From Candidatus Iainarchaeum sp. (lineage in GTDB: Archaea > Iainarchaeota > Iainarchaeia > Iainarchaeales > CSSED10-239), in NCBI GenBank assembly GCA_037441475.1, contig JBBISB010000001.1, positions 456,418 to 488,417 of the forward strand: 32,000 bases of DNA. The letters run 5' to 3'. Positions 8,063-9,738 of this stretch are shown here, in pieces (the stretch's first letter is position 1; each line of letters opens with the position of its first letter). The position numbers and the translations under genes are program-made. The notes below the pieces were generated by a model. The model searched no databases, had not been told where the DNA came from, and saw only the letters and a list, made by a program, of their open reading frames with translations.

Positions 8063-8106
8063 CTTAATATCCTTTTTTTTATTTTAAAAATAACAAATCA
8101 TAATTG

Positions 8107-8544
8107 GTAATTACCGCTTAAATTAATTAATTTACTACATATCTTGGACAAATAACCCTTTATTAAAAATAACTGTTAATTAATTAAAAAATAGTAATAA
8201 TAACTTATTTTTTTCATTTAAACCACAAAAACAACCTTATTTTTAAAAATAAACATAAAAATGACATTTAAACAAAATAAAAGTATTTTACCAATCTAGA
8301 AACACTGTAATTACTATGGTAATTACCATTAAAAAATGCAATTAAAGTAATTTATTTACTTAAGCGCCAAATAAGCTACATAAACAAAATAATTGAAATA
8401 TTACAATTAAGGCCTAATTATTTGTGTATTTAAAAATATTAAAGTAATTACTTATTACATCTAAAATAATTACTGTAATTACCATAAAACCACTCACATA
8501 ATTACTGTAATTACCGAACCCTTTAAAATAATTACGGTAATTAC
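8107..8544. repeat. Array of the 8-bp palindrome GTAATTAC in the non-coding region between tRNA-iMet and ORF 8552
   Basis: Perfect copies lie at 8107-8114, 8307-8314, 8319-8326, 8444-8451, 8475-8482, 8507-8514 and 8537-8544. ATAATTAC variants lie at 8466-8473, 8498-8505 and 8528-8535. Together these form three composite units ATAATTAC-N-GTAATTAC, spaced 32 and 30 bp apart. The last unit ends 7 nt before the ATG at 8552 and overlaps a TATA-like TTTAAAATA. Confidence 0.85.
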
Positions 8545-8551
8545 TATATAT

Positions 8552-9121
8552 ATGGGATTACTAAAATTTATTAAAAAAATGTTTTCAAAAGGAAAACAAG
8601 GATCTATTGAAGAAAAAGATAGTTTTGAAATATCTAAAAATAATACTGTTTCTTATGAAAAAAGGGCAGATAATTTAGATCAAAATACATTAATAAATAA
8701 GGAATTTTCTAATGATTTAAGTAAAGACACCTATCTTGAAAAAGAAAGAATATTAGAATTAAAATATTTGAATAATAAGAACAACATAACTCAAGATAGC
8801 ACACAAACAGCAGATGTAGAAAGCATTTCAATAAAACAACTTAACACTATATGGGATATTTTAAAAGTAAAAGAAAACACTCAGGCAGAACACATAATTA
8901 ATTCAATACCTTCTGATAAATGGGTAACAATGGATGAAGTTAGACATAACATTAAGCTTAATTTTAATATAGAATATTCTAATGAAAAAAGCTTATATCC
9001 TTACCTTAAAACACTTACAGACATAAATTTAATAAAATTAAACAACACAGGTAAAAAAAGGACTTGGAAGAAAAACATTATTTTTATTAAGGAAAACAAA
9101 GTAATTACTAGTAATAACTAA
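8552..9121 (+). CDS. Orphan protein with a predicted C-terminal winged-helix DNA-binding domain
   Basis: 189 aa. The N-terminal half is low-complexity and polar. The C-terminal segment has a helix-helix-helix-wing pattern (LNTIWDILKV...WVTMDEVRHNI...SLYPYLKTLTDINLIKLNNTGKKRTWKK). I recognise no family. GTAATTAC motifs flank the gene on both sides. Confidence 0.6.
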   Translation: MGLLKFIKKMFSKGKQGSIEEKDSFEISKNNTVSYEKRADNLDQNTLINKEFSNDLSKDTYLEKERILELKYLNNKNNITQDSTQTADVESISIKQLNTIWDILKVKENTQAEHIINSIPSDKWVTMDEVRHNIKLNFNIEYSNEKSLYPYLKTLTDINLIKLNNTGKKRTWKKNIIFIKENKVITSNN

Positions 9122-9170
9122 GAAATAAGAAGTAATTACTGTAATTTCTGTTTAATCTTTAAGTAATTAC
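9101..9170. repeat. Second cluster of GTAATTAC motifs at the convergent 3' ends of ORFs 8552-9121 and 9136-9738
   Basis: Perfect copies lie at 9101-9108, 9132-9139 and 9163-9170. A degenerate GTAATTTC lies at 9141-9148. Positions 9132-9148 repeat the composite GTAATTAC-T-GTAATTtC seen upstream. Confidence 0.8.
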
Positions 9171-9738
9171 TATAGAATAAAGTTAATTTTTCAGAACCTT
9201 CTTTAGATTCTTTAAACCATTCAAAATTAGTTATTGTTTCTATAATCTTAATTAATGTATTTAAATAATTTTTATCACTAGCATTATTTTCAACAATATT
9301 ATTTACCTCTGTAAATAAACTTACTTCTTTATTATTTAAATTAATTATTTTATAATTATATATAAAATCTTCTAATATCTTAACAACATTACTGCTTTCT
9401 AAATCTATTTGATCAACAGTATACTTAACTTCCCATTCTCCTTTACTTTTCCAATTATGGGCTGGATTTATGCCTGTGTTAAAATAATCAATAATTTTAT
9501 TTTCATAACCTACAGGAATAACCACCGCATTTCTACCTGGTTTATAGTGCGGTATATCTGTTAAAATTCCTTTTCTTATATATAAATAAGGTTTATTGTC
9601 TTTTTTTGTAACATTCTGTTGATAACCATATATTGATCTAAATACTTTTTGATATAAATAAGAAGATCTATTTATATTATCTTTAAATATAAACTTATAT
9701 TTTATATATATCGCTTTTATTTTACTCAAGAGAGACAC
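9136..9738 (-). CDS. Orphan hypothetical protein, soluble, no recognisable family
   Basis: It is a 200-aa ORF with no TM segments and is convergent with 8552-9121. The first ~90 aa alternate strand-like and helix-like segments (IYIKYKFIF...YLYQKVFRSIYGYQQ...YLYIRKGIL...AVVIPVG). I cannot assign a function. Confidence 0.55.
   Translation of the reverse strand: MSLLSKIKAIYIKYKFIFKDNINRSSYLYQKVFRSIYGYQQNVTKKDNKPYLYIRKGILTDIPHYKPGRNAVVIPVGYENKIIDYFNTGINPAHNWKSKGEWEVKYTVDQIDLESSNVVKILEDFIYNYKIINLNNKEVSLFTEVNNIVENNASDKNYLNTLIKIIETITNFEWFKESKEGSEKLTLFYSNYLKIKQKLQ

What the first reader, a model, noticed from the sequence alone, without database searches (positions are those of the whole stretch)
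8063..9175. Dense array of the palindrome GTAATTAC bracketing an orphan winged-helix gene beside tRNA-iMet
I count ten perfect copies of GTAATTAC in about 1.1 kb: 8107, 8307, 8319, 8444, 8475, 8507, 8537, 9101, 9132 and 9163. There are also ATAATTAC or GTAATTTC variants. From base composition alone, far fewer than one copy of this 8-mer is expected over 1.1 kb. Scanning by eye, I saw only one other perfect copy in the remaining ~31 kb, at 30184-30191 inside a CDS. The motifs are organised. Three composite units (ATAATTAC-N-GTAATTAC) are spaced 32 and 30 bp apart, roughly three helical turns. The last unit abuts the TATA-like box and the ATG of ORF 8552-9121. A pair at 8307/8319 is spaced 12 bp. 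Another composite unit sits at the 3' end of the gene. The bracketed protein has a C-terminal winged-helix-like segment. This is also the largest non-coding tract in the window (~490 bp, very AT-rich). The arrangement fits three hypotheses: an autoregulatory operator array, a plasmid-style centromere or iteron set, or a replication-origin-like element bound by this orphan protein. I know of no described system with this motif.
Basis: partly seen in the sequence, partly recalled or inferred. Interest (0 to 1): 0.72.

Follow-up and report, generated by a model that had tools for sequence, protein, structure and literature searches.

The report
Self-regulating DNA-binding gene with operator array
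The repeated palindrome GTAATTAC is real and conserved across a whole group of tiny DPANN archaea (Iainarchaeota/Diapherotrites), always beside one small winged-helix gene, and most likely marks where that protein binds to switch off its own promoter, so it is a new protein family doing a familiar job.

Summary
GTAATTAC occurs 11 times in the window against 0.86 expected, and 10 copies lie in 8107-9170. The gene is not an orphan. The 189-aa protein belongs to a small, sharply bounded family (37 clusters at 50% identity) restricted to Iainarchaeota/Diapherotrites. It sits in a fixed chromosomal order: TFE-alpha, tRNA-iMet, array, ORF189, then convergent ORF200, PRC-barrel and XerA. In a protein-first sample, 55 of 56 relatives carry the same 8-mer in the 1 kb before the winged-helix domain. 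This holds at locus GC of 17-50% and domain identity down to about 36-40%. The site is R-GTAATTAC-Y. Site spacings are multiples of about 10.3 bp. One unit lies between the conserved TATA box and the start of an apparently leaderless gene. The predicted recognition helix is invariant. Best reading (about 0.6): a helically phased operator array through which the protein represses its own promoter. An origin is unlikely: there is no cdc6 within 10 kb and no ORB-like boxes, and a complete Diapherotrite genome has its origin at cdc6. I found no support for a plasmid centromere, an iteron set or an integrated element. A conserved N-terminal amphipathic helix and the XerA/PRC-barrel neighbours leave open a chromosome-tethering role. 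New member of a known kind; moderate interest.

The parts
7988..8063 (+). tRNA-Met(CAT) with initiator features. It is the conserved left boundary of the spacer.
   Evidence: ARAGORN; Rfam. A1:U72 and the GGG:CCC anticodon stem are read from the sequence. The same tRNA precedes the array in relatives.
8107..8114 (.). Distal single site tgGTAATTACcg, 44 nt after the tRNA.
   Evidence: L024 and L249 have a site cluster about 50 nt after the tRNA.
8142..8150 (+). Conserved block TCTTGGACA. Its function is unknown and it is probably not part of the operator.
   Evidence: Invariant TTGGACA columns in the 6-locus alignment. The block changes position between clades.
8307..8326 (.). Upstream auxiliary pair GTAATTAC-N4-GTAATTAC, centres 12 bp apart, about 235 nt before the ATG.
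   Evidence: The pair aligns with the same pair in L001 and L094, and with sites at about -165 to -250 in many relatives.
8444..8451 (.). Single site aaGTAATTACtt.
8466..8482 (.). Composite unit 1, ATAATTAC-T-GTAATTAC.
   Evidence: aligned and conserved in 6 loci.
8498..8514 (.). Composite unit 2, ATAATTAC-T-GTAATTAC.
8522..8529 (+). Inferred TATA box TTTAAAAT, centred about 26 nt before the ATG. This implies a leaderless or near-leaderless mRNA.
   Evidence: TTTA(A/T)AAT is conserved in all 6 aligned loci. The position rule for archaeal promoters comes from established knowledge. The transcription start itself is inferred.
8528..8544 (.). Composite unit 3, ATAATTAC-G-GTAATTAC. It is the promoter-proximal operator between the TATA box and the start.
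   Evidence: This is the most conserved non-coding block, invariant in 6 loci. In most of the 68 protein-first loci a site starts 10-25 nt (in a few about 30-50 nt) before the predicted start.
8552..9121 (+). ORF189. It has an N-terminal cationic amphipathic helix (about residues 2-13), an Asn-rich disordered linker and a C-terminal winged helix-turn-helix (about residues 92-183). It is the proposed binder of the array.
   Evidence: AF2 model, with blocks covering residues 111-170 at pLDDT 87-94. Foldseek matches ArsR/SmtB, Fur and BlaI wHTH proteins. Family data are; helix amphipathicity is.
9101..9170 (.). Downstream site group across the convergent 3' ends: 9101, 9111 (variant), 9132, 9141 (variant) and 9163. 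Adjacent centres are 9-22 bp apart.
   Evidence: Equivalent groups follow the stop codon in L001, L094, L063, L188, L189 and L214, and lie next to the ORF200 3' end in L043. They are absent in many other clades.
9136..9738 (-). ORF200, a conserved convergent neighbour of unknown function, restricted to the same lineage.
   Evidence: It is syntenic in nearly all loci but missing in L014, where the array persists.
9873..10238 (-). PRC-barrel protein, a conserved neighbour (context only).
   Evidence: Pfam PF05239; synteny.
10429..11265 (-). XerA tyrosine recombinase, a conserved neighbour (context only). It is not a mobile-element integrase.
   Evidence: NCBIfam NF040815 XerA equivalog, 269 bits against a cut-off of 220; synteny.

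Best explanation
The GTAATTAC copies are binding sites for the product of the adjacent gene ORF189, a lineage-specific winged helix-turn-helix protein of Iainarchaeota/Diapherotrites. Together they form an autoregulatory operator array. Each site is the 10-bp palindrome R-GTAATTAC-Y, suited to a symmetric dimer or to a monomer in either orientation. Sites occur singly or as doublets 9-12 bp apart. All sites lie at multiples of about 10.3 bp, on one face of the helix, which would allow bound proteins to contact each other and assemble cooperatively. The best conserved unit sits between the TATA box and the start of a probably leaderless transcript. In the higher-GC relatives two further sites lie immediately upstream of the TATA box. 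Occupancy should therefore block TBP/TFB or RNA polymerase recruitment and shut the gene off once enough protein has accumulated. The auxiliary sites 165-450 nt upstream, and in one clade just past the stop codon, probably raise local occupancy or loop the 0.6-kb gene. What is shown: the enrichment, the phylum-wide conservation and linkage to the gene, the phasing, the promoter overlap, the fold and the invariant recognition helix. What is inferred: that ORF189 is the binder, that the effect is repression, the position of the transcription start, and cooperativity or looping.
For: Enrichment is 11 copies against 0.86 expected, with 10 in 1.1 kb. A motif-first genome scan found that every archaeal hit whose sequence reaches that far has an ORF189 homologue next to the cluster in the same gene order, at locus GC of 20-47% and domain identity of 33-72%. 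In a protein-first metagenome sample, 55 of 56 non-duplicate loci have at least 1 perfect site in the 1 kb before the wHTH domain and 44 have at least 3. Density there is 4.81 per kb against 0.31 per kb elsewhere. The single exception carries only one-mismatch variants at the same place. Unbiased k-mer discovery in 21 spacers returns only GTAATTAC-derived words. Phylogenetic footprinting shows the sites are the conserved blocks of an otherwise drifting spacer, and the unit after the TATA box is invariant. Phasing gives a Rayleigh R of 0.71 at 10.2-10.4 bp in the first set and 0.675 at 10.2 bp in the independent set, against a null 99.9th percentile of 0.26. The C-terminal domain is predicted as wHTH with high confidence and matches ArsR/SmtB, Fur, BlaI/MecI and STIV F93. 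The predicted recognition helix NE(K/R)SLYPY(L/I)KT(L/M) is essentially invariant (single substitutions in one locus) across loci that share the motif. The array persists where ORF200 is missing (L014). Within 160 kb of flanking DNA there are only 15 further copies, mostly inside genes. A precedent is Ss-LrpB, which binds three regularly spaced palindromic boxes in its own control region and wraps about 100 bp (PMC1802622).
Against: No binding or expression data exist, so the protein-site link rests on association. Ten to fifteen sites spread over 1.1 kb, on both sides of the gene, is more than simple autoregulation usually needs. A regulator needs an output other than itself, and none was found in the flanking DNA available. 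An 8-bp palindrome is short for a classical wHTH dimer, whose half-sites normally lie about 10 bp apart, so the true unit of recognition is unclear. A diverged homologue in a likely mobile element (L186) keeps the recognition helix but has no GTAATTAC nearby.
Confidence: 0.6

Rival explanations
1. The array is mainly a structural chromosomal landmark, with autoregulation as a side effect. Many copies of ORF189 coat the phased sites. Through the conserved N-terminal amphipathic helix they tether this one locus to the membrane or to division or segregation proteins. This would resemble a centromere or a Noc-type DNA-membrane bridge.
For: There are 10-15 phased sites on both sides of the gene. 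Within the flanks sampled, the triple cluster occurs at this locus only. The N-terminal helix is conserved family-wide although the linker is not, with mean hydrophobic moment 0.69 against a background of 0.28 and net positive charge. The conserved neighbours are XerA (chromosome dimer resolution) and a PRC-barrel protein, and PRC-barrel proteins act in archaeal division (bioRxiv 10.1101/2023.03.28.534520). Noc uses an N-terminal amphipathic helix to recruit DNA to the membrane (PMC4331003).
Against: No partition NTPase was seen in the annotated flanks. The amphipathic helix could equally be an oligomerisation or partner-binding element. Higher-GC relatives have only 3-5 sites, all within about 100 bp of the promoter, which looks like an ordinary operator. 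PRC-barrel genes have many unrelated neighbourhoods. No localisation data exist.
Confidence: 0.15
2. The sites are bound by a different factor, such as ORF200 or a global regulator, which controls ORF189. In that case ORF189 is a target rather than the binder.
For: The link between protein and sites is by association only. ORF200 is almost always co-located, and in some clades the downstream sites sit at its 3' end.
Against: The array persists in L014, which lacks ORF200. The ORF200 model shows no recognisable DNA-binding fold. The sites track the ORF189 promoter in every clade. ORF189 has the DNA-binding fold and an invariant recognition helix that matches an invariant motif.
Confidence: 0.12
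3. The AT-rich spacer with its repeats is a replication origin, chromosomal or captured from a plasmid. The GTAATTAC copies would act as iterons or origin boxes bound by ORF189 as initiator, as WhiP does at Sulfolobus oriC3.
For: It is the largest non-coding tract in the window and is AT-rich, with repeats next to a winged-helix gene. DNA-metabolism genes lie nearby: MutS/L, RNR, dUTPase, topoisomerase and RFC. One family member sits beside a DUF5906 protein (possibly a primase-helicase-type gene, from my own knowledge of that Pfam family) in a likely mobile element.
Against: No orc1/cdc6 lies within 10 kb on either side in the window, L001 or L003, nor in the 8 kb upstream in Ca. Forterrea sp.. 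There is no ORB-like motif. In the complete genome of Ca. Forterrea multitransposorum the single skew-defined origin lies next to cdc6 (PMC5905446). Palindromic sites over a TATA box fit an operator better. Local GC skew simply follows gene orientation. ORF189 has one small wH domain and no ATPase.
Confidence: 0.04
4. The segment from the tRNA to the recombinase gene (8064-11300) is a small integrated mobile element. The repeats would be its arm-type or replication sites.
For: A tRNA gene lies on one side and a tyrosine recombinase 2.4 kb away.
Against: No repeat of the tRNA 3' end occurs anywhere in the window. The recombinase is the XerA equivalog. The whole gene order is conserved in all relatives examined, across 17-50% GC. 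No homologues occur on the viral contigs that carry the motif.
Confidence: 0.02

Closest known systems
Ss-LrpB of Sulfolobus solfataricus and its own control region (PMC1802622)
   Same: It is an archaeal regulator that binds several regularly spaced palindromic boxes upstream of its own gene. Binding is cooperative and wraps about 100 bp. Its boxes have weak A/T base pairs at the centre, as AATT does here.
   Different: Ss-LrpB is an Lrp/AsnC protein with a RAM effector domain, 15-bp boxes and three sites. ORF189 has no RAM domain and matches no Lrp model. Its core is 8-10 bp, and up to 10-15 sites also lie downstream of the gene.
ArsR/SmtB and BlaI/MecI winged-helix repressors (CzrA 6cda/1r1u, NolR 4omz, MecI 1sd6)
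   Same: These are the best structural matches of the C-terminal domain. They are dimeric wHTH repressors that bind palindromic operators over their own promoters.
   Different: Sequence identity is only 8-20%, and no Pfam or NCBIfam model of these families is matched. ORF189 has no sensor or effector region. Its N-terminal amphipathic helix and long disordered linker are absent from those families.
ParR/parC-type centromere-binding autoregulators of plasmids (own knowledge)
   Same: A small DNA-binding protein has a phased array of about 10 short repeats around its own promoter. That array serves as both operator and centromere.
   Different: Those systems have a ribbon-helix-helix fold and direct repeats, always sit with a ParM or ParA motor gene, and are plasmid-borne. 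None of these features is found here.
Noc of Bacillus subtilis (PMC4331003)
   Same: It combines a site-specific DNA-binding protein with an N-terminal amphipathic helix, linking specific DNA sites to the membrane.
   Different: Noc is a ParB-family CTPase with 16-bp sites scattered over the chromosome. Here the fold is wHTH and the sites cluster at one locus. Membrane binding by ORF189 is only a conjecture from sequence.
WhiP and oriC3 of Sulfolobus; ORB/Orc1 origins (own knowledge)
   Same: A winged-helix protein gene lies next to an AT-rich repeat-bearing spacer.
   Different: WhiP has two wH domains and is related to Cdt1. ORB boxes are asymmetric and lie beside orc1/cdc6. No such gene or box is found here.

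Membership tests
Winged helix-turn-helix DNA-binding fold | An alpha1-beta1-alpha2-alpha3-beta2-wing-beta3 topology that resembles solved wHTH proteins. | tested here: met
   The AF2 model has 10-residue blocks covering residues 111-170 at pLDDT 87-94, helices 110-118, 127-138 and 145-157, and a beta hairpin at 161-174. Foldseek matches CzrA, Fur, NolR, MecI/BlaI and F93 with probability about 1.0 and E of 7e-4 to 1e-2.
ArsR/SmtB family | Sequence membership (Pfam HTH_5/HTH_20 or NCBIfam models). | tested here: not met
   No Pfam, NCBIfam or PDB sequence hit, even at permissive E-values.
Autoregulated archaeal repressor acting by promoter occlusion | Binding sites overlap the BRE/TATA box or lie between the TATA box and the transcription start of the regulator's own gene. 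| tested here: met
   The conserved unit at 8528-8544 lies between the conserved TTTAAAAT and the ATG. Higher-GC relatives have two sites before and one right after the TATA box. The promoter elements are inferred from sequence.
Autoregulated archaeal repressor acting by promoter occlusion | The protein binds those sites and lowers transcription. | not testable with these tools
   This needs EMSA or footprinting and in vitro transcription or reporter assays.
Archaeal chromosomal origin (ORB/Orc1 type) | An adjacent orc1/cdc6 gene. | tested here: not met
   None in the window, in the 10-kb flanks of L001 and L003, or upstream in L030.
Archaeal chromosomal origin (ORB/Orc1 type) | ORB or mini-ORB boxes flanking an unwinding element. 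| tested here: not met
   TTCCANNGGAAA with 1 mismatch gave 3 hits against 3.9 expected. One falls inside ORF189 and none in the spacer.
Archaeal chromosomal origin (ORB/Orc1 type) | A strand-skew switch or copy-number peak at the locus. | not testable with these tools
   Only 20-32 kb is available per genome, and local skew follows gene orientation. Ca. Forterrea has its origin at cdc6.
Plasmid partition centromere (ParR/parC, ParB/parS) | A partner NTPase gene (ParA, ParM or TubZ) in the same operon. | tested here: not met
   No such gene was seen among the annotated neighbours.
Plasmid partition centromere (ParR/parC, ParB/parS) | A repeat array next to the gene of the binding protein. | tested here: met
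Iteron-type plasmid replicon | A Rep initiator with tandem WH domains, directly repeated 17-22-bp iterons, and location on a plasmid. | tested here: not met
   ORF189 has a single wH domain of about 95 aa. The sites are palindromes in a conserved chromosomal setting. No homologues occur on the viral contigs that carry the motif.
tRNA-integrated mobile element | A direct repeat of the tRNA 3' end at the far boundary, and variable presence among relatives. | tested here: not met
   No repeat of 14 nt or more from the tRNA region occurs elsewhere in the window. The segment is present in all relatives examined. The recombinase is XerA.
Noc-like DNA-membrane tether | An N-terminal amphipathic membrane-targeting helix. 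| tested here: inconclusive
   A conserved cationic amphipathic helix is predicted (mean hydrophobic moment 0.69). Membrane binding was not tested.
Noc-like DNA-membrane tether | A ParB/CTPase fold. | tested here: not met
   The fold is wHTH and there is no ParB match.

The most novel reading that the evidence does not exclude
ORF189 is not just a self-repressor. It would be a locus-specific chromosome anchor. Many copies assemble on the phased GTAATTAC array next to xerA and a PRC-barrel (CdpB-like) gene. Through the conserved N-terminal amphipathic helix they would tie this single chromosomal site to the membrane or the division apparatus. This would be an archaeal, winged-helix analogue of a centromere or Noc-type tether in a DPANN lineage, for which I know of no described segregation system.
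Probability: 0.12. Interest if true: 0.8.

Novelty: new member of a known kind. Interest (0 to 1): 0.4.

Why it matters
No Iainarchaeota/Diapherotrites regulator with a defined binding site turned up in the literature and family libraries searched here. This analysis pairs a new, unannotated winged-helix family with a precise, phylum-wide conserved DNA motif and a clear promoter architecture. That makes a directly testable regulator-operator pair for uncultivated DPANN archaea. The array is also a compact genomic marker of the lineage. If the many phased sites and the conserved N-terminal amphipathic helix reflect a structural role rather than simple feedback, the locus would offer an entry point into chromosome organisation or segregation in these small-genome archaea.

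Tried and rejected
- **Integrated element at the tRNA.** Rejected. There is no att-like repeat, the recombinase is the XerA equivalog, and synteny is fixed.
- **Origin of replication.** No cdc6 and no ORB-like boxes. The Ca. Forterrea origin lies at cdc6. Local skew is uninformative.
- **Non-coding RNA or small ORF in the spacer.** No Rfam match even at E of 1 or less, and only a 27-aa ORF.
- **Bacterial-type promoter and terminator scan.** Not above shuffles.
- **dif site for XerA.** I considered GTAATTAC-N4-GTAATTAC and the TCTTGGACA block. Neither has the 11-6-11 inverted-arm layout. This rests on my own knowledge of dif sites and was not tested further.
- **TFE-beta-like factor.** I considered this because of the TFE-alpha neighbour. 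The fold matches are ArsR/Fur-type, and there is no Fe-S cysteine cluster.
- **ORF200 identity.** Pfam, NCBIfam, PHROGs, PADLOC, a PDB profile search and Foldseek against PDB and BFVD all gave nothing significant.
- **Literature search for the 8-mer.** It returned only primers and unrelated sequences.
- **Bacterial and viral hits of the triple-motif scan.** None encodes a homologue of the five module proteins, and their regular spacings look like unrelated tandem repeats.
- **A second shared motif in the spacers** (CACTCACC or TTACTTT). It is clade-specific and was not recovered by k-mer discovery across loci.
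Full report
**1. The observation.**
GTAATTAC occurs 11 times in the 32-kb window. In 100 dinucleotide-preserving shuffles the mean was 0.86 (maximum 4). Allowing one mismatch adds ATAATTAC at 8466, 8498 and 8528, GTAATAAC at 9111 and GTAATTTC at 9141. This gives three composite units ATAATTAC-N-GTAATTAC whose 22-nt repeats start 32 and 30 nt apart, and a fourth composite at 9132-9148. The tRNA at 7988-8063 is tRNA-Met(CAT). It has A1:U72 and a GGG:CCC anticodon stem, so it is the initiator (read from the sequence). The 488-bp spacer has no ORF above 27 aa and no Rfam match.

**2. The source organism and the 'orphan' claim.**
The window has 22-37% GC. Its genes are MutL, MutS, three tRNAs, a broken Trm56, TFE-alpha, tRNA-iMet, ORF189, then on the other strand ORF200, a PRC-barrel protein and a tyrosine recombinase. 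These are followed by CobA, class II RNR, dUTPase, Cdc48, topoisomerase, an Lrp-type regulator, RFC and type IV pilus genes. ORF189 has 84 homologues in the 5.8-billion-protein collection. The named ones come from 'Candidatus (I)ainarchaeum', Diapherotrites or unclassified archaeal MAGs. An exhaustive profile search of 1.84 billion cluster representatives found only 37 clusters, all with E of 1e-10 or better and none in the twilight zone. The family is therefore small, sharply bounded and lineage-specific, not an orphan. It matches nothing in Pfam, NCBIfam, PHROGs, PADLOC or PDB sequences.

**3. The locus is chromosomal core, not a mobile element.**
Contigs of 222-688 kb from relatives show the same gene order: Trm56, TFE-alpha, tRNA-iMet, long spacer, ORF189, then convergent ORF200, PRC-barrel and recombinase, with further shared genes on both sides in L001 and L003. 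The recombinase scores 269 bits on the NCBIfam XerA equivalog against a cut-off of 220. No segment of the tRNA is repeated elsewhere in the window. The viral-contig collection has 57 stretches with three close GTAATTAC copies, and none encodes any of the five module proteins.

**4. The motif travels with the gene.**
Two independent samplings agree.
  - The bacterial hits encode none of the five module proteins, and their regular spacings look like unrelated tandem repeats.
  - Every Iainarchaeota-type archaeal hit whose sequence extends that far has an ORF189 homologue directly beside the cluster, in the same synteny.
  - This holds at locus GC from 20% to 47% and ORF189 identity down to 33% (40% or more in all but one locus).
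- **Protein-first.** A metagenome scan with the family alignment gave 68 loci.
  - Of 56 non-duplicate loci with enough upstream sequence, 55 have at least one perfect GTAATTAC in the 1 kb before the winged-helix domain. Fifty have at least two and 44 have at least three.
  - Density there is 4.81 per kb against 0.31 per kb in the rest of the loci.
  - The one exception (L232) has one-mismatch variants at the same positions, for example GTAAATAC right after the TATA box.
- **Other checks.** In the first set, 100 perfect copies lie in 25.6 kb of ORF189 regions and 15 lie in 160 kb of flanks, where 3.1 are expected. Most of the flanking copies are inside genes or belong to displaced parts of the same module. 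K-mer discovery without prior assumptions in 21 spacers returns only GTAATTAC-derived words.

**5. Anatomy of the array.**
- **Motif.** Flank statistics extend the motif to R-GTAATTAC-Y.
- **Phasing.** Distances between sites cluster at 9-10, 18-23, 29-32, 39-42, 49-51 and 60-64 bp, with almost nothing in between. The Rayleigh statistic peaks at 10.2-10.4 bp (R = 0.71). The independent metagenome set repeats this (R = 0.675 at 10.2 bp, random-spacing 99.9th percentile 0.26). The loci are related, so these are not independent trials, but spacing patterns differ between clades while phase is kept.
- **Footprinting.** Alignment of six spacers shows the GTAATTAC units as the conserved blocks in drifting sequence. 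The most conserved stretch is TTTA(A/T)AATAATTACGGTAATTACT.
- **Promoter position.** I read TTTAAAAT (8522-8529) as the TATA box. Its centre is about 26 nt before the ATG, which by the usual archaeal spacing (established knowledge) puts the transcription start at or next to the ATG. The last composite unit (8528-8544) then lies between the TATA box and the start.
- **Higher-GC clade.** The arrangement is GGTAATTAC-TA-GTAATTACC, then TTTTTAA, then GTAATTAC followed by TCATTAC half-sites. That is two sites before and one right after the TATA box. In the protein-first loci, most have a site that begins 10-25 nt (in a few about 30-50 nt) before the predicted start.
- **Auxiliary sites.** Sites at about -165 to -250 are common in the AT-rich clade. 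Sites just past the stop codon occur only in some clades (window, L001, L094, L063, L188, L189, L214). In L043 an extra gene is inserted and the downstream sites stay with the ORF200 3' end.

**6. The protein.**
AlphaFold2 with a 29-sequence alignment gives a disordered middle (13-84) and a confident C-terminal domain. The 10-residue blocks covering residues 111-170 have pLDDT 87-94. The domain has helices at 110-118, 127-138 and 145-157 and a beta hairpin at 161-174. Foldseek against the PDB returns ArsR/SmtB proteins (CzrA, SmtB, CadC, NolR, HlyU), Fur/PerR, BlaI/MecI and the viral F93, all winged-helix repressors, at 8-20% identity.

The third helix, NE(K/R)SLYPY(L/I)KT(L/M), and the basic wing are the most conserved parts of the family. 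They are nearly unchanged in all loci that share the motif, with single substitutions in one locus. This fits an unchanged DNA target.

The N-terminus forms a conserved cationic amphipathic helix, for example MGLLKFIKKMFSK. Its mean hydrophobic moment is 0.69 against a protein background of 0.28. The Asn-rich linker between helix and domain varies in length and is absent in short forms.

**7. Most likely mechanism.**
ORF189 binds the palindromes. The phased sites allow side-by-side cooperative assembly. Occupation of the units around the TATA box and start blocks pre-initiation complex formation. This is negative autoregulation by promoter occlusion, as in several archaeal regulators. The distal and downstream sites would raise local concentration or loop the gene. 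The closest documented parallel in layout is Ss-LrpB, which binds three regularly spaced palindromic boxes in its own control region and wraps about 100 bp (PMC1802622).
- **Shown here:** enrichment, conservation, linkage, phasing, promoter overlap, the fold and the invariant helix.
- **Inferred:** the binder, the sign of regulation, the transcription start, and cooperativity or looping.

I put this at about 0.6.

**8. Rivals.**
- **Replication origin.** There is no orc1/cdc6 within 10 kb in the window, L001 or L003, nor upstream in Ca. Forterrea sp.. There are no ORB-like boxes. In the complete genome of the Diapherotrite Ca. Forterrea multitransposorum the skew-defined origin lies beside cdc6 (PMC5905446). 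Probability about 0.04.
- **Plasmid centromere or iterons.** No motor or Rep gene was seen, and the setting is chromosomal.
- **Integrated element.** Rejected as in section 3.
- **A different binder.** This cannot be excluded without experiment. However, the array persists without ORF200 in L014, and the confident ORF200 model (pLDDT 88) shows no DNA-binding fold or any structural neighbour. Probability about 0.12.
- **A structural role.** The number of sites, their presence on both sides of the gene, the conserved amphipathic N-terminus and the neighbours leave room for a tether or centromere-like role. XerA resolves chromosome dimers, and the PRC-barrel family includes the archaeal division proteins CdpB1-3 (bioRxiv 10.1101/2023.03.28.534520). 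Noc offers a distant functional model (PMC4331003). Probability about 0.12-0.15.

**9. Novelty and verdict.**
No paper, family model or solved structure describes this protein or motif. In kind it is an autoregulated winged-helix repressor with a multi-site operator, so I class it as a new member of a known kind. It has unusual features: an 8-bp core, up to 15 phased sites, sites on both sides of the gene, an N-terminal amphipathic helix and phylum-wide fixity. Of its three hypotheses, the operator reading is the supported one. Interest 0.4.

Noticed in passing
window 8142-8150; L001 9603-9611; L003 9594-9602; L118 and L043 downstream of ORF189: A conserved strand-specific block TCTTGGACA. In AT-rich relatives it lies 30-90 nt after tRNA-iMet. 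In higher-GC relatives it lies about 10 nt after the TFE stop, followed 11-13 nt later by TTAAAAGG. In two loci a second copy follows ORF189. Its function is unknown. It does not look like a dif site.
   Followed up: partly
window 6743-7262: The Trm56 gene is broken. Residues 1-55 are in one frame (6743-6907) and residues 55-174 in another (6903-7262), and the ORF in that frame ends at a stop at 7125-7127. The shift is at a G-run near 6900. This is either a pseudogene or a homopolymer sequencing error. Relatives have an intact gene of 171-181 aa.
   Followed up: partly
window 9136-9738 (-), and its homologues in nearly all related loci: ORF200 is a lineage-restricted family with a confident AlphaFold model (pLDDT 88, pTM 0.84). 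It has no significant Foldseek neighbour in PDB or BFVD and no family match, so the fold may be undescribed. The N-terminal half is nearly invariant (KYKF.F...Y.YQKVFRSIYGY.QNV.K). My reading of the secondary-structure pattern is that it looks ferredoxin-like, but this is only an impression.
   Followed up: partly
L030 7215-7570; L011 upstream region: The initiator tRNA gene carries an intron after the anticodon in some relatives. In Ca. Forterrea sp. it is about 290 nt and contains a 99-aa ORF (7232-7531). In L011 it is about 45 nt.
   Followed up: no
L186 1-2693: A diverged family member (P0162, 45% identical over the wHTH, wing degraded) lies directly after a DUF5906 protein (possibly primase-helicase-like, from my own knowledge of that Pfam family) among tiny ORFs. 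This is probably a plasmid or virus of the same host lineage. It has no GTAATTAC. A 43-nt imperfect inverted repeat spans its start (1725-1813).
   Followed up: partly
P0061: One homologue (81% identical in the wHTH) is deposited as a protein of the CPR bacterium Candidatus Vampirococcus lugosii, on a 7-kb contig. It is most likely a misbinned Iainarchaeota contig.
   Followed up: no
L182 2580-2960; L011, L102 and L043 spacers: Clade-specific second repeats occur on the gene strand of the spacer. L182 has five TTACTTT copies about 60 nt apart, possibly ATTAC-like half-sites. L011, L102 and L043 have three to five CACTCACC-like copies. K-mer discovery does not find them shared across clades.
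   Followed up: partly
L238 and L239 about 1500-3000; L245-L249: In some clades the array is expanded to about 9 perfect sites over 2.2 kb, including inside predicted coding sequence. A further conserved copy sits at the 3' end of the gene before Trm56.
   Followed up: no
L043 2817-3311; L014: The module is plastic. L043 has an extra 164-aa ORF between ORF189 and ORF200, with the three downstream sites staying at the ORF200 3' end. L014 lacks ORF200 altogether but keeps the array.
   Followed up: partly
L084, L041, L021 (Nostoc); many Prevotella/Bacteroidales loci: GTAATTAC also sits inside regular tandem repeats in bacteria, with period 24 or 33 in Nostoc and about 22 in Prevotella. These are unrelated to the archaeal array and their nature was not examined.
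   Followed up: no
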